Of a stretch of 64,000 nucleotides of DNA, positions 7,430-48,880 are shown in pieces. The translations under genes were made by a program, and so were the position numbers. The notes beneath the pieces are model-generated. The model searched no databases and was not told the DNA's origin. It worked only from the letters and a program-made list of their open reading frames with translations. Positions within the stretch are counted from its first letter, which is position 1. Each line of letters opens with the position of its first letter. This stretch comes from Patescibacteria group bacterium (GTDB lineage Bacteria > Patescibacteriota > JAQUNI01): the NCBI GenBank assembly GCA_028717685.1, contig JAQUNI010000001.1:271451-335450 (forward strand), read 5' to 3'.

Positions 7430-7906
7430 ATGAAAAAGAATCTGATTTCGGTTGTTTTATTGATGTTCTTGATAATAACAATGGTGCCTATTTTTGCCAA
7501 CAGCGAAGAAACGCATTGCGCCATTAATATAGAACCTGCAAAGACTGGTACTGAAGACAAAACCCAGCTGATGATTGTTGGGGGGTATATTGATGAAACA
7601 ATACAGGACCTTTTGCCCACGACAACAATAATCGTAGAGCTGAATGGCGTCAAGATCCCTGCCGAGATCCACGAAAATATGACATACACCGCGACATTTA
7701 TAACATTCGGAGGATATGTCGCAGGGGTTGGCGATGCTGTGACTATATCTATGGATAAGAATGGGGTAGAGTTGTTTTCAAAAAAGCATATTCTGACCCA
7801 AACGGAGATCAATGAAAAGAATTGTATAATTGATCTCGGGCTTTCATCCACAGCTACATCCCCCCTAAAAATTTGCCCCACAACTTGGGGAGCGCTAAAA
7901 AGATGA
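7430..7906 (+). CDS. Hypothetical secreted protein
   Basis: A GGAGGG RBS sits 8 nt upstream of the ATG. Signal peptide is MKKNLISVVLLMFLIITMVPIFA. The overlapping antisense ORF 7411..7962 was rejected. Confidence 0.55.
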   Translation: MKKNLISVVLLMFLIITMVPIFANSEETHCAINIEPAKTGTEDKTQLMIVGGYIDETIQDLLPTTTIIVELNGVKIPAEIHENMTYTATFITFGGYVAGVGDAVTISMDKNGVELFSKKHILTQTEINEKNCIIDLGLSSTATSPLKICPTTWGALKR

Positions 7907-7983
7907 TTTCTGGATAAAAAATATTTTCCTAGGTTGTAACGATTTTTAATTCGGAGGTACAAAATAGTTCAAGACGCAAAGCT

Positions 7984-8015
7984 GAGGCAGTGACCATACT
8001 GCCTTTTTTATTTTT
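7984..8015 (+). terminator. Rho-independent terminator
   Basis: GGCAGTGACCATACTGCC hairpin followed by TTTTTTATTTTT. Confidence 0.5.
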
Positions 8016-8109
8016 CACGATTCTAAACTTTTTATTATATTTCCTCGTAGCTTTAGGTCTTAAGACCTAAAGCTACTCCGACGAGTTGTCTCAATCAGAA
8101 TGACTTTAC

Positions 8110-8640
8110 TTATTTAAACACAATCGGGATTTCGATCGCTGCGTCGTTTTCAGGCAGACCAGAAGGATTGTCTCGGCGCAAAATCAAAGTGCCCTTGTTA
8201 CTCACTTCAGTATTAGGTTTGGTAAATTTGATCGTGCCCTCAAAATCCACAAACTCCTCGGTCATCCATTCCCCTTTGGCTTCGGCATACCCATTGGTAA
8301 TAATTTTACCGTCCCAATCCATTAAGGACACGGGGAAGCTCCCTTCAAAATACCAAGTCCCCCGCGCTCGACCGCGCACAATTAACGGCGAGGCAATCGC
8401 CTCTCCGGGTTGCGGTGAAGTCACAACAATCATCTCATTGGTTTCCGCAGCAGGCGGGTTTGTCTCATCTCCTTCACTGTCTGATGTTGGCGGGATTGCC
8501 GTATCCTCTTCACCTTTGGGTGCAGGGGGGGTTACCTGTTGTTTTTCGCCCTGCTCACAACTTGCTCCCAAAAACAAAGAACCTGTAAGGAGCAAAAACG
8601 CCACTGTGCTAATCTTTAGGATGTTTTTTCTTTTGAGCAT
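8110..8640 (-). CDS. Secreted lipoprotein (hypothetical), Pro/Glu-rich linker plus C-terminal beta domain
   Basis: Lipobox LFLGASC follows the signal peptide. The N-terminal part is low-complexity. No confident domain call. Confidence 0.5.
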   Translation of the reverse strand: MLKRKNILKISTVAFLLLTGSLFLGASCEQGEKQQVTPPAPKGEEDTAIPPTSDSEGDETNPPAAETNEMIVVTSPQPGEAIASPLIVRGRARGTWYFEGSFPVSLMDWDGKIITNGYAEAKGEWMTEEFVDFEGTIKFTKPNTEVSNKGTLILRRDNPSGLPENDAAIEIPIVFK

Positions 8641-8768
8641 AGTTTTGTTTTGATTGGTTTGTTTAATTGCTTTTAAGTCTTTACATTAAAAATATAATGA
8701 TGGGCAAAGATATAGGCAAAAATTTATGGTTCAAATCAGGAGACCTGAATTAACAAGGATAAAAAAAC

Positions 8769-11700
8769 TTAGAGTTTTCTGTATTCGCAAATCTCCCGAA
8801 AATCACAATATTTACAGACATAGGGGTTAGGGCACGGAGCGAAGGAGGAAGATTTGATTTTTTGAATCGTTTCGGAAATGTCAGTTTTTAATTTGGTTAA
8901 CTCCTTATCGCTTCCTAAAAATGAAATCTCCTGATTATTTTTGAAAAAGTAAAAGGTTAGTTTTTGCGGCTTAAGGCGCAAAACTTCTTCCGCGGCTAAT
9001 TGGTAAAGCAGGAGCTGAGCGCGCTGGTCGCGGGTAAGACGCTCTCTTGCTTCCCCTGTTTTATAATCCACAATCGCCACCCCGCCATCTACTTCATCCA
9101 CGCGGTCAATGCGACCAATCACGACCGCGCCATCAATTTTTAAACGAAAAGCTTTTTCCACGCCCAGAACCTTGGGCCAATTGTTCTGACGCGCTTCATA
9201 AAATGTTTTCAGCTGTTTTAAGCCTTGTTGTTTATACTTTTTCTGCGTCGCTTCGTCTGGATACCAATCATCAATCCAAGCGTTCTCATAAATCTTTTTT
9301 AATGCCTCCCATGTAATTTTATTGCCCTTATTCCGCAGAGACATTACCTGCGACTTTTCTGTATTTCTAAATCCAAACAAATCGGTTTGCATGGCGTTTT
9401 CTTGGTTTTGCAAAAGATGAAACAAATCATACATTACCTTGTGCATTGCTTGACCAAAGCTATGCTGATAATGACCGCGCTTCGGGATGCGGATGCCAAA
9501 TTGAAACTTGTATTGCAAAGGGCATTTTTGGAAAGCCGCGAGCTGGGAAAAGCTAAAATGTTTAGGAAGCCTTAGGGCTTCTTGCGGAATTCTAATTGTT
9601 TTGGGAATCGCGATTTGCAAATCCTCCAAAACCCGCTTCTCTCGCGGAATAGATAGAGACGCGGAATCTTGCGTCTCTATATTTTTCGCGGCAATGTTGC
9701 ACTCAATCAAAAAGCGGGAGAGTTTTTTAGCTCTGGCGCCACCGTAATTTGCCGCCGAAGTGAAAAACACTCCTTCTTTGGCACGCGTTACGGCAACATA
9801 AAAAAGCCTCCGCTCTTCCTGAAGGTGAATATCACCTTCAGGCAAGATTTCTTTAACCAAGGAATCGGGAATCTCTATCGGGTCGCGGCGGTTGATACTC
9901 GGAAATCTTTTATCCACCATACCTACAATAAACACATAGCGGAATTCCAAGCCCTTCGCTTTATGAATCGTCATAATCTTAACCGCTTCAGGTCCGGCTT
10001 CCAGATCCATATCAAGCGCCCCCTCGTCCCCTGCTTCCTGCTCTAAGTTGATACGTTTAATAAAATCCTGGAGCCTCGCGCGGGTCGTAGTCTCGGTTTC
10101 AAAATTTTTAACTTTTTTGGCGAATTGATTTAAATAAAAAATATTGTCCCGCGTTTCCTGGTCGTCTTTGCCCCCTAAATATTTTAAATATCCAGAATCT
10201 TCCATAAAAGCGAAGAAGACGGCGTGAATTGTCGCGTCGCGGACAATTTGAGAATGTTTTTGAATCAAGGATAAAATTTTCCTGGTTTGATCCTTGCTCT
10301 CCGGGCTGATTCGCAAAAGGTCGGCTTGGAGAAGGGCGCGATACAGACTTGTGCCTTTGCGTCCCGCCCAATAATTCAATTCCACCAGATCTTCGGTTTT
10401 GATTTTGAAGATGGGAAGATTTAAAATGCGGTATAAGCTCGGGCTTTCGTGGTAATTATCCAGAAGATTAAAATAAGCGAGGACATCCATAATAATCGGC
10501 TTTTTGTATAAGCCTCGGCTCGCAGCCCAAACATAAGGCACGCCCGCTTCTTTCAAGCCGTGCGCGAAAATCTCGGAGATTTCATTGGTGCGCGACAGGA
10601 TGGCAAAATCGTTCCAAGTCAAATCTTTATTCCTTTGTATTAAATCCACCATCTTTTTGACCACTTTTTCCACTTCTCTCTTCTGATCCGAAAGATGCAA
10701 ATGTTCCACCATCCCTTTCTCGCCAGTTTGCGACTGCAACTTTTTGCTCACTTTGCCGCCGAGCTTAACCTCTAGGCGTTCCGGATTATTGAGTTTAATA
10801 AATTCATAAGATAAATCCAAAATATTCTGGCGCGAACGGTAATTATTGGTAATAAAGACTTCGGCAGAATCCGGATAGTCGCGTTTAAATTCCAAAATAT
10901 TGGAAACTGACGCCCCGCGGAATTTATAGATTGATTGGTCATCGTCGCCAGTCACGGTCAAATTGTTTTCAGGCCGGCTGAGAAGTTTCACTAATTCGTA
11001 TTGCGCGTAATTGGTGTCCTGAAATTCATCCACGAGAATATATTTAAAACGGTTTTGATAAAGGGCTAGAACCGAGGGGCGCGACTGCAAGAGTTTTAAA
11101 GCGTAATTAATAAGGTCGCCAAAGTCCAAAGCATTGTTCTGCAGTAATAAGTCTTGATATACTTTGTACGCTTTGGCGACTTCCAAAAGCCGCTCCCCTT
11201 CCCCACTCGCGCGGTCTCTTTCCTCCAGAGCCGCGCCCTGATCCAGTTTCATGTTCTCGGCATATTCCAAATATTCCGCGGGTGAGATTAATTCATCTTT
11301 TAAACGCGAGAAGTGCTGAACAAGGGCTTGGATAAATTTAGTCGGATTGCCCAAGGGTTTGTAATAATCTAGATCAAATTTGTCCAGATTTTCGCGAATT
11401 AAAATCCATTGGTCTGTGGCGTTTAATAATTTAAAATCATTGGGGAGACCGATGTCCAAGGCGTGCTCTTTTAAAATCCTTTGCCCCAGCCCGTGAAAGG
11501 TATCAATCCAAATATCCACATAGCCATAGGGCAAAAGCTCGTCCACGCGATTCTCCATTTCCTCGGCGGCTTTTTCCGTAAAGGTTACGGCTAAGATTTC
11601 TTCGGGCTTGGCTAAACCTTTGTAAATCAAATAGGCAATGCGGCGGGTAATGACCGTAGTTTTTCCAGTCCCCGCGCCAGCCACAATTAAAAGCGGACCC

Positions 11701-17166: not shown

Positions 17167-17319
17167 CCAATTTCATTGTTCTATTGTTTAATTGTTCTAT
17201 TGTTAATTAAGACAAATACAACAATAATGAAGCAACGAAATAATAATAACAAAAAATTTAGAAAAATCTTCCTAAATTACTCAAAGCAATTCTGTATTGC
17301 CAACTAACATTTACCTTGT

Positions 17320-17391
17320 TGCGGGAGGGGGATTCGAACCCCCGACCTCGAGGTTATGGGCCTCGCGAGCTACCACTGCTCTATCCCGCGA
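17320..17391 (-). tRNA. tRNA-Met (CAT), possibly initiator (C1·A72 mismatch)
   Basis: Reverse-strand cloverleaf CGCGGGA…CCCATAA…GGGGGTTCGAATCCCCC-TCCCGCA-A. The acceptor end has an unpaired C1/A72, as in bacterial tRNA-fMet, but the anticodon stem has only two G-C pairs adjacent to the loop. Confidence 0.65.
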
Positions 17392-21561: not shown

Positions 21562-21933
21562 TTACTTTCTACCTTTTAGCCTAAGCATAGAAGCACCTAA
21601 AATTTTGGAGAGTTCAATTGCCTCTCGCAATAAAGGGTCAACCAATTCTAGCTTGATCATCTTACTATCTCTAACTAAGCACAGCCAATACTTTGTTTCA
21701 TTAGCAGATTTTAAACTATGATTCATAAAATTTTTAAAATCGTTTTTAGAAGATGCCGCCTGGGCCTCAATAATATTGGCTCCTATAGAGGTTGCTGATC
21801 TTAGAAGCTGGTGATTAATAATTTTACAAACCCCGGAAGAAGATGTGCCATTAATTAGCTTTATAATATTGAGGGAGAATTTATAAGCTCTTAACTTCAG
21901 ATCATTTTTAAATTTTGAATTGCAATTTTGCAT
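21562..21933 (-). CDS. Four-helix-bundle protein (TIGR02436 family, the '23S rRNA intervening-sequence protein' family)
   Basis: 123 aa. FKNDLKLRAYKFSLNIIKLIN…LRSATSIGANIIEAQAASSKNDFKNFMNHSLKSANETKYWL matches this family. The gene is flanked by inverted AT-rich repeats at 21510-21560 and 21905-21955. Confidence 0.75.
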   Translation of the reverse strand: MQNCNSKFKNDLKLRAYKFSLNIIKLINGTSSSGVCKIINHQLLRSATSIGANIIEAQAASSKNDFKNFMNHSLKSANETKYWLCLVRDSKMIKLELVDPLLREAIELSKILGASMLRLKGRK

Positions 21934-47297: not shown

Positions 47298-47983
47298 ACG
47301 AGGAATCAGAAGCTAAAAATTGGCTGACTAAAATCGGAAAATTTATAGCCGATTTGATTTTTCCCGTGCAATGTTTGGGCTGCCACCGCGCCGGAAAATG
47401 GCTTTGCGAACGTTGTTATTATCAAATTAAGTCTCACTGCTCCCCCTTTCCTCCTCATTTAAAAAAATCCCCGTTCAATAGATTGATTGCGCCATTTTCT
47501 TATCGCGACCCCCTCATCAAAAAACTGATCAAGGCTTATAAATATCATTTCGTGCAGGATATCAGCGAAATTTTAAGCCGGCTCTTAATTGAATACTTAA
47601 AACCGCTCTTCAGAAACATTGAACCGCAAAATTTTGTTTTAATCCCCGTCCCTTTGCACAAAAGGCGCTTGCGCTTCCGCGGTTTCAATCAAGCCGAACT
47701 CTTAGCCGAACATATAGCGCGGGAATTTAATCTGCCCTTTGCCAAAGATATTTTAATCCGCCGCAGAAACACTACCCCGCAAGCGCAGCTTAAAGAAAAA
47801 GAACGGCGGCAAAACATCCACGAGGCTTTTGCCGCTGTCCGCAATCCCTCTTTAAAAAACAAAATTATTATCCTGCTTGATGATGTGCTGACGAGCGGCG
47901 CGACTTTGGAAGAGTGCGCCCGCGTTTTGCGTCGGACCTGCCGCCCAAAGGCAATTTGGGGATTAGCGGTGGCGAGAGGATAA
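47294..47983 (+). CDS. comFC: ComF family protein (ComFC-type phosphoribosyltransferase)
   Basis: N-terminal 4-Cys finger CLGCHRAGKWLCERCY. C-terminal PRTase motif IILLDDVLTSGATL. Overlaps the clp stop by 4 nt. Confidence 0.8.
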   Translation: MNEESEAKNWLTKIGKFIADLIFPVQCLGCHRAGKWLCERCYYQIKSHCSPFPPHLKKSPFNRLIAPFSYRDPLIKKLIKAYKYHFVQDISEILSRLLIEYLKPLFRNIEPQNFVLIPVPLHKRRLRFRGFNQAELLAEHIAREFNLPFAKDILIRRRNTTPQAQLKEKERRQNIHEAFAAVRNPSLKNKIIILLDDVLTSGATLEECARVLRRTCRPKAIWGLAVARG

Positions 47984-48050
47984 GGCAGGAAGCAGGAATC
48001 AGGAATCATGAATTAGGAATAAGGAATGAGGAATCAGGAATGAGGAGGTG
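47984..48050. repeat. Tandem heptamer array (NAGGAAT)x8
   Basis: caggaatcaggaatcatgaattaggaataaggaatgaggaatcaggaatgagga, directly after the comFC stop. Confidence 0.65.
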
Positions 48051-48163
48051 AGGAAAAATAAAATTCATTATTCATTATTCCCAATTCCCCGCCCGCCATC
48101 GCTACGCTTCAGGCGTTAGCGGGCGCGGTCGGCTTGCGTGGCGGGCGGGCTTATTCCAAGATT

Positions 48164-48371
48164 GGTGGGTTGGCAGAGTGGTTTAATGCACTGGTCCTGC
48201 CCCGCAACAGAACGGAGAGGTGCTAGAGCGGTTTAATAGGACGGTCCTGAAAACCGTTGTCCCTTCAACGGGACCGTGAGTTCGAATCTCACCCTCTCCG
48301 CCCTTGTGCGGGGTCGCGAAAAACCAGAACCCGCTTTTTGCGGGTCGTAGGTTCAAATCCTACACCCACCG
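48164..48371 (+). tRNA. Split or interrupted class-II (Ser-like, G73) tRNA whose halves flank tRNA-Ser(TGA)
   Basis: 5' part GGTGGGT-TG-GCA-GAGTGGTTTAA-TGC-A-CTGGT at 48164-48195. 3' part ACCAG-A-CCCGC-TTTTT-GCGGG-TC-GTAGG-TTCAAAT-CCTAC-ACCCACC-G at 48325-48371. Acceptor, anticodon-stem and variable-arm pairings all span the insert. An 8-bp helix GCCCCGCA/TGCGGGGT brackets the inner tRNA. Confidence 0.4.
48214..48300 (+). tRNA. tRNA-Ser (TGA)
   Basis: GGAGAGG…ACGGT-CCTGAAA-ACCGT, long variable arm TGTCCCTTCAACGGGACC, GTGAG-TTCGAAT-CTCAC, CCTCTCC-G. It has the unusual C33. Confidence 0.75.
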
Positions 48372-48406
48372 CATAACTTAATTTTAAATTTTTAATTCTT
48401 AATTTT

Positions 48407-48440
48407 TATTCCTCATTCATAATTCCTGATTCATAATTCC
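48407..48440. repeat. Heptamer-type repeat (ATTCMTR family)
   Basis: ttcctcattcataattcctgattcataattccc. Together with 47984-48050 it flanks the tRNA pair. Confidence 0.5.
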
Positions 48441-48446
48441 CAATAT

Positions 48447-48533
48447 GGAGAGGTGGCTGAGTGGCTGAAAGCAGCACACTGCTAATGTGCTGACCTCGTA
48501 AGGGGTCCGTGGGTTCGAATCCCACCCTCTCCG
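48447..48533 (+). tRNA. tRNA-Ser (GCT)
   Basis: GGAGAGG-TG-GCT-GAGTGGCTGAA-AGC…GCACA-CTGCTAA-TGTGC, long variable arm, GTGGG-TTCGAAT-CCCAC, CCTCTCC-G. Confidence 0.85.
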
Positions 48534-48564
48534 CCTTCGCCACGCTGAAGCGTGGCTACGGCGT

Positions 48565-48630
48565 GACGAAGTCCGCTTCCAGCAGGACGAAGTTAGCTTC
48601 CAGCGCGACGAAATCTGCCAGTAGACACGC
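48565..48630. repeat. 21-nt tandem repeat x3 (copy 2 of the family at 39036-39085)
   Basis: cgtgacgaagtccgcttccag / caggacgaagttagcttccag / cgcgacgaaatctgccag. Confidence 0.55.
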
Positions 48631-48646
48631 GAAAGCGGGCCATCGT

Positions 48647-48880
48647 ATGTACTACGTTTACAGCTTAAAGTGTAAAGGTGGTTATTATATTGGTTGTACC
48701 GATAATCTTAAAGATAGAATTGATAGGCACCGAAAGGGCCAAGTGTCAGCTACAGTAAATAGGCTACCCATAAAATTGGATTTTTATTTTGCAATATCTG
48801 ATAAATATAAAGCATTTGAATTTGAAAAGTATCTGAAGTCTGGTTCTGGGAGGGCTTTTATAAATAGACATATATTGTAG
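48647..48880 (+). CDS. Small GIY-YIG nuclease family protein
   Basis: MYYVYSLKCKGGYYIGCTDNLKDRIDRHRKG…KLDFYFAISDKYKAFEFEKYLKSGSGRAF carries the GIY/YIG, Arg, His and Glu motifs. The upstream part of the track ORF (48509..) is repeat sequence plus the tRNA 3' end, so the ATG at 48647 is preferred. Confidence 0.7.
   Translation: MYYVYSLKCKGGYYIGCTDNLKDRIDRHRKGQVSATVNRLPIKLDFYFAISDKYKAFEFEKYLKSGSGRAFINRHIL

What the first reader, a model, noticed from the sequence alone, without database searches (positions are those of the whole stretch)
48164..48371. Apparent nested tRNA: two halves of a Ser-like tRNA base-pair around a complete tRNA-Ser(TGA)
Positions 48164-48195 fold as acceptor 5' strand, D-arm and the 5' strand of an anticodon stem (CTGGT). 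Positions 48325-48371 give the matching 3' anticodon-stem strand (ACCAG), a class-II variable-arm hairpin (CCCGC-TTTTT-GCGGG), a T-arm (GTAGG-TTCAAAT-CCTAC) and acceptor 3' strand ACCCACC plus G73. Between them lie a full tRNA-Ser(TGA) (48214-48300) and an 8-bp bracketing helix (GCCCCGCA / TGCGGGGT).

Either (i) the outer tRNA carries a roughly 125-nt intervening sequence in its anticodon loop that itself encodes a tRNA, or (ii) RNase P/Z release of the inner tRNA yields two half-molecules that could reassemble through the bracketing helix, as in archaeal split tRNAs, or (iii) a tRNA gene was destroyed by insertion. No such arrangement is known to me in Bacteria. NAGGAAT heptamer arrays (47984-48050, 48407-48440), GC hairpins (48089-48150, 48539-48557) and a GIY-YIG nuclease gene are immediate neighbours.
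Basis: seen in the sequence. Interest (0 to 1): 0.7.

Follow-up and report, generated by a model that had tools for sequence, protein, structure and literature searches.

The report
tRNA gene inserted inside another tRNA gene
A serine tRNA gene of a Patescibacteria (CPR) bacterium is split exactly in its anticodon by a 120-bp cassette that carries a second complete serine tRNA with the same anticodon; relatives show this is a recurrent DNA insertion that replaces the invaded gene, not a spliced intron.

Summary
Window 48164-48199 plus 48320-48371 are the two halves of a tRNA-Ser(UGA) gene. They are separated by 120 bp (48200-48319): a 14-nt leader, a complete tRNA-Ser(UGA) (48214-48300) and a 19-nt trailer. 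Removing the 120 bp in silico restores a canonical 89-nt tRNA.

Relatives with the same gene order (ClpC-ComF-tRNA) carry this tRNA uninterrupted at the same site (L136, L145, L139). So the split is a DNA insertion between nt 35 and 36.

It is not a one-off:
- A metagenome contig (L146) has a cassette of exactly 120 bp at the same position. It has the same ends (G|CCCCG...CGGGGTCGCGA|AAAACC) and a compensated bracket helix. Host and cargo are swapped: the window's host tRNA type is the cargo there.
- A third combination occurs in eight assemblies (L126-L133).
- In those cases the invaded gene has decayed. In the window it is still perfect, and a 94%-identical sister strain has a different locus. 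The event is therefore probably young.

Small GIY-YIG nuclease genes behind GC-rich hairpins sit at tRNA genes throughout these lineages. In one relative such a gene sits in the same 35/36 site. They are the likeliest driver, but this is unproven.

The intron and split-tRNA options are not.

The parts
48164..48199 (+). Host (outer) tRNA-Ser(UGA) gene, nt 1-35: acceptor 5' strand, D arm, anticodon-stem 5' strand and loop bases C32 C33 U34 G35.
   Evidence: Apart from one D-loop base and T33C, it is identical to the intact orthologue in L136.
48200..48213 (+). Cassette leader (14 nt). CCCCGCA at 48200-48206 is the 5' strand of the bracket helix.
   Evidence: L146 has a leader of the same length starting with the same CCCCG.
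48214..48300 (+). Cargo (inner) tRNA-Ser(UGA), GGAGAGG type, anticodon loop CCUGAAA (C33). This is probably the working gene.
   Evidence: Rfam RF00005 at 51.9 bits; ARAGORN.
48301..48319 (+). Cassette trailer (19 nt). TGCGGGG at 48307-48313 is the 3' strand of the bracket helix. The conserved right end is GGGGTCGCGA, 48310-48319.
   Evidence: L146 has an identical right end and an identical trailer length. The ending GCGA|AAAACC is also seen in L126-L131.
48320..48371 (+). Host (outer) tRNA-Ser(UGA) gene, nt 36-73: loop bases AAA, anticodon-stem 3' strand, variable arm, T arm, acceptor 3' strand and G73. G73 is followed by CAT, where the intact orthologues have CCA.
   Evidence: The 39 nt spanning the right junction (48316-48354) are 94.9% identical to the relic in L129.
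48447..48535 (+). tRNA-Ser(GCU), the tRNA gene that the GIY-YIG cassette follows.
48536..48646 (+). GC-rich hairpin leader of the GIY-YIG cassette (TTCGCCACGCTGAAGCGTGGCTACGGCGTGACGAAGTCCGCT...).
   Evidence: Near-identical leaders follow a tRNA 3' end in L154, L164 and L181, and L177 has a clearly related one.
48647..48880 (+). 77-aa protein consisting only of a GIY-YIG catalytic domain; candidate nuclease behind the turnover at this locus.
   Evidence: Pfam PF01541, E = 1.8e-12. The 120 best homologues listed, from several candidate phyla of Patescibacteria, are 75-86% identical.
47984..48163 (.). Upstream spacer: an AGGAAT heptamer array that pairs with a following ATTCC array, then a long GC-rich hairpin (about 48087-48152). 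The hairpin contains a unit resembling the GIY-YIG leader hairpin.
   Evidence: The same heptamer arrays flank the tRNA-Ser genes in L129, L136 and L137.

Best explanation
This is a DNA-level insertion, not an RNA-processing device. A 120-bp cassette has been placed between nucleotides 35 and 36 of the resident tRNA-Ser(UGA) gene. The cassette is a 14-nt leader, a complete tRNA-Ser(UGA) gene and a 19-nt trailer. The leader and trailer pair as a GC-rich bracket helix, and the cassette ends in GGGGTCGCGA.

The insertion kills the resident gene, and the cargo tRNA supplies the same decoding function, so the cell is unharmed.

Shown:
- the insertion site
- the uninterrupted ancestral state in relatives
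- recurrence of the same cassette geometry with other host/cargo pairs
- decay of the invaded gene elsewhere
- rapid turnover of this locus

Inferred:
- The outer halves are now only leader and trailer of the inner pre-tRNA. RNase P and 3' processing would remove them.
- The bracket helix keeps the inner tRNA folding as its own domain, or else is a terminal inverted repeat needed for mobility.
- The insertion is started by a nuclease that cuts tRNA-gene loops, and the break is then repaired by copying from a cassette-bearing donor (homing-like gene conversion). The most likely nuclease is one of the small GIY-YIG proteins encoded next to tRNA genes in these lineages.

The window's nest is a young example, because the invaded gene has not yet accumulated a disabling change.
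For: 1. Ancestral state. L136 (ComF 60% identical), L145 and L139 (ComF 50% identical) have the same gene order and an uninterrupted GGTGGGT-type tRNA-Ser(TGA) immediately after ComF. Deleting 48200-48319 from the window restores that tRNA.

2. Recurrence. L146 has a cassette of exactly 120 bp after G35 of a GGAAGCG-type tRNA-Ser. It has a 14-nt leader, a 19-nt trailer and the same ends (CTTG|CCCCG...CGGGGTCGCGA|AAAACC). Its bracket helix is CCCCGTA/TACGGGG against CCCCGCA/TGCGGGG in the window, a compensatory C-G to T-A change. Its cargo is the GGTGGGT type, which is the host type in the window. L126-L133 come from eight assemblies and carry a GGAAGCG-type cargo inside GGTGGGT-type relics. 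L126-L131 show the right junction GCGA|AAAACCAG; L132 and L133 end before it. Among the non-Streptomyces loci in hand, GCGAAAAACC occurs only at these nests plus one unrelated hit.

3. The invaded gene dies. The L146 host has about 23 extra nt in the D arm and lacks T31. The L129 host has lost its D-stem and anticodon-stem pairing and its acceptor 3' strand, and has a hairpin insert in its T loop. ARAGORN does not recognise either host after in-silico excision.

4. The window's event is young. Flanking genes are 94% identical between the window and L134, yet L134 carries a different tRNA-Ser(UGA) type with only a stub of the old host. The right junction plus the 3' half is 94.9% identical between the window and L129, while ComF and ClpC are about 71% and the working tRNA-Ser(GCU) is 88.8%. 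This is the mosaic pattern expected from conversion tracts.

5. Nuclease association. The window's 77-aa GIY-YIG has 75-86% identical homologues in several candidate phyla of Patescibacteria. In 5 of 5 lineages examined it lies directly 3' of a tRNA gene, behind a similar GC-hairpin leader. In L126-L128 and L130 an 81-aa GIY-YIG cassette sits in the same 35/36 site of tRNA-Ser(UGA). That cassette is absent from L129 and L131, which encode the identical ComF protein. In L164 another GIY-YIG sits in the D loop of tRNA-Ser(GCU), with the tRNA 5' part duplicated.

6. Precedent. T4 SegB, a GIY-YIG homing endonuclease encoded in a tRNA gene cluster, recognises the conserved tRNA T-psi-C motif and drives inheritance of the neighbouring tRNA genes (PMC2330249).
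Against: - No enzyme has been tied to the cassette. It contains no ORF, and the L146 nest has no GIY-YIG ORF of 60 aa or more within about 1 kb; the one adjacent ORF checked against Pfam is not GIY-YIG.
- The 77-83-aa GIY-YIG proteins lack the DNA-binding domain that characterised homing endonucleases have (the comparison rests on my own knowledge).
- There is no target-site duplication.
- I cannot explain how cassettes with nearly identical ends and identical length come to carry different cargo tRNAs.
- The outer gene in the window is flawless. That is also what a still-functional gene would look like.
- The inner-to-outer 3' junction in the window has no second assembly behind it.
- Only three host/cargo combinations were found, because the large DNA scans were exhausted.
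Confidence: 0.78

Rival explanations
1. True intron. The outer gene is still expressed as a working tRNA-Ser(UGA). The 120-nt insert is removed at the RNA level, either by an unknown endonuclease plus ligase or by RNase P and RNase Z release of the inner tRNA followed by trimming and ligation. One nested gene would then give two tRNAs.
For: - The outer halves are structurally perfect.
- The bracket helix brings the two junctions together and shows one compensatory change between the window and L146.
Against: - There is no group I core: no Rfam intron hit at E up to 10. Only 33 nt of the insert are not tRNA.
- There is no bulge-helix-bulge. The 5' junction lies at the base of an 8-bp helix and the 3' junction in an asymmetric A-rich loop.
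- No splicing endonuclease or RtcB is encoded in the 64-kb window.
- Hosts in L146 and L129 have decayed.
- L134 has lost the host almost completely.
- The spliced product would duplicate the anticodon of the inner tRNA, so nothing selects for it.
Confidence: 0.06
2. Split, two-piece RNA. After the inner tRNA is cut out, the two outer halves stay paired through the acceptor stem, anticodon stem and bracket helix. They would act as a tRNA-like molecule that might still be charged by SerRS, which does not read the anticodon, for a non-decoding role.
For: - About 20 base pairs would hold the halves together.
- The acceptor stem, D arm, long variable arm, T arm and G73 are all intact.
- Serine identity elements lie outside the anticodon (established knowledge; not tested here).
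Against: - The halves decay or are lost in relatives.
- The outer gene has CAT after G73 where the intact orthologues have CCA.
- There is no evidence for any such role.
Confidence: 0.03
3. The outcome is the same (insertion and gene replacement) but the mover is not a GIY-YIG nuclease. Candidates are a single-strand (HUH/Y1, IS200/REP-like) transposase acting on GC-rich hairpin elements, a serine recombinase using the symmetric anticodon stem-loop as its site, or plain illegitimate recombination between paralogous tRNA-Ser genes.
For: - Cargo-less GC double hairpins sit at exactly the same 35/36 site (L126). Others sit in T loops (L129, L138) and in the D arm (L146), that is, at sites that are loops only in single-stranded nucleic acid.
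- A Y1 transposase gene lies near one GIY-YIG locus (L156).
- Large serine recombinase genes abut the tRNA-Ser genes in L126 and L139-L143.
- Position 35/36 is at the dyad centre of the anticodon stem-loop (read from the sequence).
- The L146 nest has no GIY-YIG nearby.
Against: - No transposase or recombinase is encoded in the window.
- The bracket repeat is not placed symmetrically about the junctions: TCGCGA intervenes on the right side only.
- There is no common target motif at the three kinds of loop site.
Confidence: 0.2
4. Assembly artefact: two tRNA-Ser loci were chimerically joined.
For: - Logan contigs of the same population break at 48295/48298 and resume only at 48539/48546.
- The 3' junction is therefore supported by the window assembly alone.
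Against: - The 5' junction is reproduced in two other assemblies.
- A chimera would not restore a perfect tRNA when exactly 120 bp are removed.
- The same 120-bp architecture occurs in an unrelated JGI contig (L146), and a related one occurs in eight further assemblies.
Confidence: 0.02

Closest known systems
Free-standing GIY-YIG homing endonucleases in tRNA gene clusters (phage T4 SegB; PMC2330249)
   Same: - A GIY-YIG gene lies among tRNA genes.
- A conserved tRNA-gene loop is the target; SegB recognises the T-psi-C motif.
- Neighbouring tRNA genes are inherited together with the nuclease gene by gene conversion, and the recipient's markers are lost.
   Different: - The proteins here are 77-83 aa and consist only of the catalytic domain, with no DNA-binding domain.
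- The hosts are cellular Patescibacteria, not phages.
- The nested cassette itself carries no nuclease gene.
- The result is a tRNA gene lodged inside another tRNA gene, which has not been described for SegB.
Group I introns at position 35/36 of Patescibacteria tRNA genes (PMC13011429)
   Same: Same phylum, and the same unusual insertion position between anticodon nucleotides 35 and 36.
   Different: [quoted passage not shown]
- The insert here is 120 nt, of which 87 nt are a tRNA.
- It has no ribozyme core (no Rfam hit).
- The invaded gene decays in relatives.
Archaeal split and intron-containing tRNA genes (Nanoarchaeum half genes; bulge-helix-bulge introns, some of which contain another RNA gene such as the C/D box RNA in the tRNA-Trp intron). 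From my own knowledge.
   Same: - The tRNA is interrupted in the anticodon loop.
- A GC-rich helix brings the two halves together.
- Another RNA gene sits within the intervening sequence.
   Different: - No bulge-helix-bulge geometry.
- No splicing endonuclease was seen in the window.
- The organism is a bacterium.
- The host halves are not conserved in relatives.
- The function is already supplied by the inner gene.
Integrative elements that target tRNA genes and carry a replacement copy of the displaced part. From my own knowledge.
   Same: A tRNA gene is the target, and the incoming DNA restores the function that the insertion would destroy.
   Different: - Those elements are kilobases long.
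- They encode an integrase.
- They replace only the 3' part of the gene and leave a direct repeat.
- Here a 120-bp unit with no gene for a mover brings a whole tRNA and leaves both halves of the old gene in place.
Mobile endonuclease ORFs with a duplicated gene end, and GC-rich double-hairpin elements, in fungal mitochondrial DNA (Allomyces). From my own knowledge; not retrieved by literature search.
   Same: - GC-rich double hairpins are scattered in an AT-richer genome and inserted into RNA genes.
- Endonuclease ORFs insert into a gene and bring a copy of the displaced gene part.
   Different: - The genome type is different and the targets are protein-coding genes.
- No nested tRNA has been reported there.
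- Any homology between the hairpin families is untested.

Membership tests
Bulge-helix-bulge (archaeal/eukaryal type) tRNA intron | Both exon-intron junctions lie in 3-nt bulges separated by a 4-bp helix. | tested here: not met
   In the minimum-free-energy fold the 5' junction (48199|48200) lies at the base of the 8-bp bracket helix. The 3' junction (48319|48320) lies at the edge of a 4-nt A bulge. The two are not separated by a 4-bp helix.
Bulge-helix-bulge (archaeal/eukaryal type) tRNA intron | The genome encodes a splicing endonuclease (EndA) and a ligase (RtcB). | tested here: inconclusive
   Neither is among the 47 ORFs of the 64-kb window scanned against Pfam. The rest of the genome is not available.
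Bulge-helix-bulge (archaeal/eukaryal type) tRNA intron | The interrupted gene stays functional, so its exons are conserved in relatives. | tested here: not met
   The hosts of the equivalent nests in L146 and L129 have decayed and are not recognised as tRNA after excision. L134 keeps only a stub.
Group I intron in a tRNA anticodon loop | Insertion within the anticodon loop (35/36 in Patescibacteria). | tested here: met
   The insert lies between G35 (48199) and A36 (48320), by comparison with L136. The 35/36 site is reported in PMC13011429.
Group I intron in a tRNA anticodon loop | A group I ribozyme core is present. | tested here: not met
   No Rfam group I hit in 47900-48700 at E up to 10. 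The insert is 120 nt, of which 87 nt are a tRNA.
Split tRNA genes (Nanoarchaeum type) | The halves are the only source of that tRNA and are joined to make it. | tested here: not met
   A complete tRNA with the same anticodon lies between the halves. Joining could not be tested.
Free-standing GIY-YIG homing endonuclease cassette at tRNA genes (SegB-like) | A GIY-YIG ORF lies adjacent to tRNA genes. | tested here: met
   48647-48880 matches PF01541 at E = 1.8e-12 and lies 111 nt after tRNA-Ser(GCU). The same arrangement is seen in 5 of 5 lineages.
Free-standing GIY-YIG homing endonuclease cassette at tRNA genes (SegB-like) | Presence/absence polymorphism between close relatives, with flanking sequence carried along. 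| tested here: met
   This was seen in relatives only. The 81-aa GIY-YIG cassette in the 35/36 site is present in L126-L128 and L130 and absent from L129 and L131, which encode an identical ComF. It comes with a duplication of about 100 nt of the 5' flank.
Free-standing GIY-YIG homing endonuclease cassette at tRNA genes (SegB-like) | A site-specific DNA-binding domain besides the catalytic domain. | tested here: not met
   The proteins are 77-83 aa and are covered almost end to end by the catalytic-domain profile.
Free-standing GIY-YIG homing endonuclease cassette at tRNA genes (SegB-like) | The protein cleaves the empty target site. | not testable with these tools
   This needs purified protein and tRNA-Ser(UGA) DNA substrates.
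Transposon or MITE with terminal inverted repeats | Terminal inverted repeats and a target-site duplication. | tested here: not met
   There is a 7-bp inverted repeat, CCCCGCA/TGCGGGG, but it is offset by TCGCGA on the right. There is no direct repeat of the target.
Integrase-mediated integration into a tRNA gene | The element carries an integrase gene and is bounded by a direct repeat of part of the tRNA. | tested here: not met
   The insert is 120 bp with no ORF and no repeated tRNA segment at its ends.

The most novel reading that the evidence does not exclude
The outer gene is not dead. The nested transcript would yield two tRNAs: the inner tRNA is released by RNase P and 3' processing, and the outer halves, held together by the bracket helix, are then trimmed and ligated. 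This would be a bacterial tRNA intron that is neither group I nor group II and that is itself a tRNA gene.
Probability: 0.05. Interest if true: 0.92.

Novelty: new variant of a known kind. Interest (0 to 1): 0.6.

Why it matters
tRNA genes are known as landing sites for large integrating elements and, in phage T4, as targets of a homing endonuclease. Here the incoming DNA is itself a tRNA gene in a 120-bp package. It lands in the anticodon of a gene with the same anticodon and takes over its job, and host and cargo types can swap roles between lineages.

If this is confirmed as a mobile unit, three things follow:
- It would be a minimal selfish element whose only cargo is the function it destroys.
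- It would explain why at least five different tRNA-Ser(UGA) backbones occupy one syntenic site in related Patescibacteria.
- It would explain why tRNA fragments, GC hairpins and tiny GIY-YIG genes pile up there.

Practically, such nests and fragments can mislead tRNA annotation, isoacceptor counts and assembly of these small genomes. The link between GIY-YIG genes and tRNA genes also gives a testable lead on the function of one of the commonest unexplained small genes in this phylum.

Tried and rejected
1. Genome-collection scan with the outer T arm and acceptor (GGTTCAAATCCNNNACCCACCG). Only L058 and L081 were useful; both show ordinary GGTGGGT-type tRNA-Ser genes.

2. ARAGORN's own reading of the outer gene: anticodon CGA with a 118-nt intron. 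I rejected it because it needs a shifted anticodon stem with a C-A mismatch and two bases between the D and anticodon stems. The orthologues show the ancestral loop was CTTGAAA, anticodon TGA.

3. Viral-contig scans for the right junction and for both tRNA types, and a phage BLAST. These gave only chance matches or ordinary phage tRNAs, so there is no evidence that the cassette comes from a phage.

4. Protein search with the spurious 57-aa antisense ORF that spans the nest, hoping to catch other nests through miscalled genes. Nothing was found.

5. Literature searches for nested tRNAs, or for GIY-YIG genes at tRNA genes, in Patescibacteria. No report was found. The closest is the group I intron paper.

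6. The idea that the window and L129 share a single old insertion and that selection has kept the outer halves perfect. I rejected this because the 94%-identical strain L134 has a different locus, and because identity between the window and L129 is mosaic: 76% for the 5' half and 95% for the 3' junction.

7. Target-site duplication or a symmetric recombinase site at the junctions. Neither is present.

8. A sigma-70 promoter or terminator inside the nest. No promoter was found. The one terminator-like site, on the minus strand, is simply the variable-arm hairpin.
Full report
**What is in the sequence**

- Positions 48164-48199 are nt 1-35 of a class II tRNA: acceptor strand GGTGGGT, D arm, anticodon-stem strand CTGGT and loop bases CCTG.
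- Positions 48320-48371 are nt 36-73: loop bases AAA, stem strand ACCAG, a paired variable arm, the T arm GTAGG-TTCAAAT-CCTAC, acceptor strand ACCCACC and G73 (coordinates).
- Between them lie 120 bp: a 14-nt leader (48200-48213), a complete tRNA-Ser(TGA) (48214-48300) and a 19-nt trailer (48301-48319).

The inner tRNA scores 51.9 bits against Rfam RF00005 and is called by ARAGORN. Leader and trailer pair as GCCCCGCA/TGCGGGGT.

Its reading is anticodon CGA with a 118-nt intron. That needs a shifted, mismatched anticodon stem, so I reject it. Removing exactly 48200-48319 gives a canonical 89-nt tRNA-Ser(TGA) with every stem intact. The 209-nt region folds as one nested structure with a z-score of -5.2.

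**Is it an assembly error?**

Logan assemblies of three other sequencing runs carry the identical ComF gene. Two of them (L001, L003) run from ComF through the outer 5' half into the inner tRNA with no difference from the window. They stop at 48295 and 48298. Contigs carrying the downstream gene start at 48546 and 48539.

So the 5' junction is independently confirmed and the 3' junction is not. A mis-join is nevertheless very unlikely. Deleting 120 bp restores a perfect tRNA, and the same architecture exists in unrelated assemblies, as described below.

**What relatives have at this site**

The window comes from a Patescibacteria (CPR) genome. Its ComF and GIY-YIG homologues are annotated as such, and the gene order is type IV pilus genes, ClpC, ComF and then the tRNAs. 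I fetched the neighbourhoods of ComF homologues.

Three relatives carry, directly after ComF, an uninterrupted tRNA-Ser(TGA) of the same GGTGGGT type. They are L136 (ComF 60% identical), L145 and L139 (ComF 50% identical). L136's copy is 79/91 identical to the window's outer gene once the insert is removed. The differences are one D-loop base, T33C, the variable arm (which still forms a paired stem) and the bases just 3' of G73.

The ancestral state is an ordinary gene, and the window has an insertion between nt 35 and 36.

**The insertion is recurrent and site-specific**

The single metagenome scan, using the outer 5' half as the pattern, returned three contigs. One of them, L146, holds the reverse nest.
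- A GGAAGCG-type tRNA-Ser is interrupted after G35 by a cassette of exactly 120 bp.
- The cassette has a 14-nt leader starting CCCCG, a 19-nt trailer ending CGGGGTCGCGA, and then AAAACC of the host.
- The cargo is an intact GGTGGGT-type tRNA-Ser(TGA), the type that is the host in the window.
- The bracket helix is CCCCGTA/TACGGGG against CCCCGCA/TGCGGGG in the window, a compensatory C-G to T-A difference.

A third combination occurs in eight assemblies (L126-L133) of a relative with 74% ComF identity. There a GGAAGCG-type cargo sits inside GGTGGGT-type relics. L126-L131 show the right junction GCGA|AAAACCAG and a recognisably related left junction; L132 and L133 end before the right junction.

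Across relatives, the site after ComF holds at least five different tRNA-Ser(UGA) backbones: GGTGGGT, GGAAGCG, GGAGAGG, GGCGGGA and GGAGGGG.

**The invaded gene dies**

- The L146 host has about 23 extra nucleotides of GC-rich hairpin in its D arm and lacks T31.
- The L129 host has lost its D-stem and anticodon-stem pairing, has GC hairpins inserted in its T loop, and has no acceptor 3' strand.
- ARAGORN recognises neither as a tRNA after the cassette is removed in silico.
- L134 is 94% identical to the window in ComF and ClpC. It keeps only a stub of the old host in front of a GGAAGCG-type tRNA.
- L138 keeps only a 3' relic, with a hairpin insert in its T loop.

These decays argue against any splicing that would keep the host in use.

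**Why the outer gene in the window is still perfect**

The locus turns over quickly. The window and L134 differ by about 6% in flanking genes yet have entirely different tRNA loci.

Identity between the window and L129 is mosaic:
- ComF 71.7% and ClpC 70.2%
- the working tRNA-Ser(GCU) 88.8%
- the outer 5' half against its relic 75.7%
- the 39 nt across the right junction 94.9%

That pattern fits repeated copying of the cassette together with variable lengths of flank. It does not fit a single old insertion under selection. The window's nest is therefore probably young. One possible first sign of decay is that the bases after G73 read CAT where the intact orthologues have CCA.

**What moves it**

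The cassette has no ORF. The neighbourhood, however, contains one family of elements.

The window ORF 48647-48880 is a 77-aa protein made only of a GIY-YIG catalytic domain. Its listed homologues are 75-86% identical across several candidate phyla of Patescibacteria and lie mostly on short contigs. In five of five lineages examined the gene lies immediately 3' of a tRNA gene, behind a similar GC-rich hairpin leader. The tRNA is Ser-GCU three times, Trp-CCA once and Ser-GGA once.

Related 81-83-aa genes sit inside tRNA genes:
- In L126-L128 and L130 one occupies the same 35/36 site of tRNA-Ser(UGA). Two 15-nt hairpins precede it, and a duplicated copy of the tRNA 5' part follows it. It is absent from L129 and L131, which encode the identical ComF protein.
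- In L164 one sits in the D loop of tRNA-Ser(GCU), again with the 5' part duplicated.

Cargo-less GC hairpins also sit in T loops at TTC|GAAT in two lineages.

Phage T4 SegB is a GIY-YIG homing endonuclease encoded among tRNA genes. It recognises the conserved T-psi-C motif and drives inheritance of the surrounding tRNA genes (PMC2330249). A nuclease-initiated, homing-like gene conversion is therefore my preferred mechanism.

It remains an inference. The small proteins lack a DNA-binding domain, and the L146 nest has no GIY-YIG nearby. Other candidate movers appear in some relatives: a Y1 transposase in L156 and serine recombinases in L126 and L139. I cannot explain how cassettes with the same ends and the same length carry different cargo tRNAs.

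**RNA-level alternatives**

- No group I core is present.
- The junctions do not form a bulge-helix-bulge.
- The 47 ORFs of the window scanned against Pfam include no splicing endonuclease, RtcB, transposase or integrase.
- The recent survey of Patescibacteria tRNA introns reports only group I introns. [quoted passage not shown]

Splicing or a two-piece tRNA cannot be excluded for the window itself, because the halves are intact. I give these two readings together less than 10%.

**Verdict**

The added finding is that this is one instance of a recurrent 120-bp cassette that carries a tRNA, inserts at 35/36 of tRNA-Ser(UGA) genes and replaces them, within a locus rich in GIY-YIG and hairpin elements. 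I found no description of this arrangement in the literature. I rate it a new variant of a known kind: mobile DNA that targets a tRNA gene and restores the function it disrupts. I score its interest at 0.6.

Noticed in passing
window 48247 (inner), 48197 (outer), 17318-17390 (minus strand); L134 3359-3448: Position 33 of the anticodon loop is C instead of the near-universal U. This is seen in the inner tRNA-Ser(UGA), in the outer gene, in the sister strain's different tRNA-Ser(UGA) backbone (L134) and in the window's initiator-like tRNA-Met (loop CCCATAA). More distant relatives have U33 in tRNA-Ser(UGA). It could be lineage tolerance, or escape from a nuclease that recognises the loop.
   Followed up: partly
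window 48536-48880; L154 1892-2234; L164 1861-2234; L177 1424-1734; L181 1427-1734: A 77-aa protein made only of a GIY-YIG domain has listed homologues 75-86% identical across several candidate phyla of Patescibacteria. In 5 of 5 lineages checked it lies directly 3' of a tRNA gene, behind a conserved GC-rich hairpin leader (TTCGCCACGCTGAAGCGTGGCTACGGCG...). It looks like a widespread mobile cassette associated with tRNA genes.
   Followed up: partly
L129 6840-6905; L138 5975-6030; L146 5135-5165; L126 6965-6994; L164 1486-1506: Short GC-rich hairpins, often in pairs such as TCACCCTACGGGTGA + TCGCCCGTAGGGCGA, are inserted into the loops of tRNA genes or tRNA relics. The sites are the T loop at TTC|GAAT in two lineages, the D loop, and the anticodon loop at 35/36.
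   Followed up: partly
L126 7883-7960 and 9470-9550: A large serine recombinase gene (7831-9402, minus strand) is flanked by inverted repeats of about 75 bp that start in the 3' end of tRNA-Ser(GCU). This may be an invertible or mobile segment. L139-L143 also have a serine recombinase gene abutting tRNA-Ser(UGA).
   Followed up: no
window 47984-48085 and 48400-48440; L129 6545-6640; L136 4180-4215; L137 1810-1850: Arrays of the heptamer NAGGAAT, or of its complement, flank the tRNA-Ser genes in several relatives. In the window the upstream array can pair with an adjacent inverted array. Their function is unknown. No sigma-70 promoter match was found here.
   Followed up: no
window 48295-48298 and 48539-48546: Independent Logan assemblies of the same population break at the 3' end of the inner tRNA and resume just after tRNA-Ser(GCU). 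This hints at strain heterogeneity, or at a second copy of these sequences in the samples.
   Followed up: partly
L134 3481-5029; L131 2326-6041; L126 7831-11171: The region downstream of ComF and the tRNA-Ser genes is a variable island. Depending on the strain it holds a restriction-modification system (L134), an OLD-family nuclease with Holliday-junction-type endonucleases (L131), or a recombinase with an HTH protein (L126).
   Followed up: no
window 21562-21933 (minus strand): An ORF matches the '23S rRNA-intervening sequence protein' family (PF05635), although no rRNA gene is nearby in the window.
   Followed up: no
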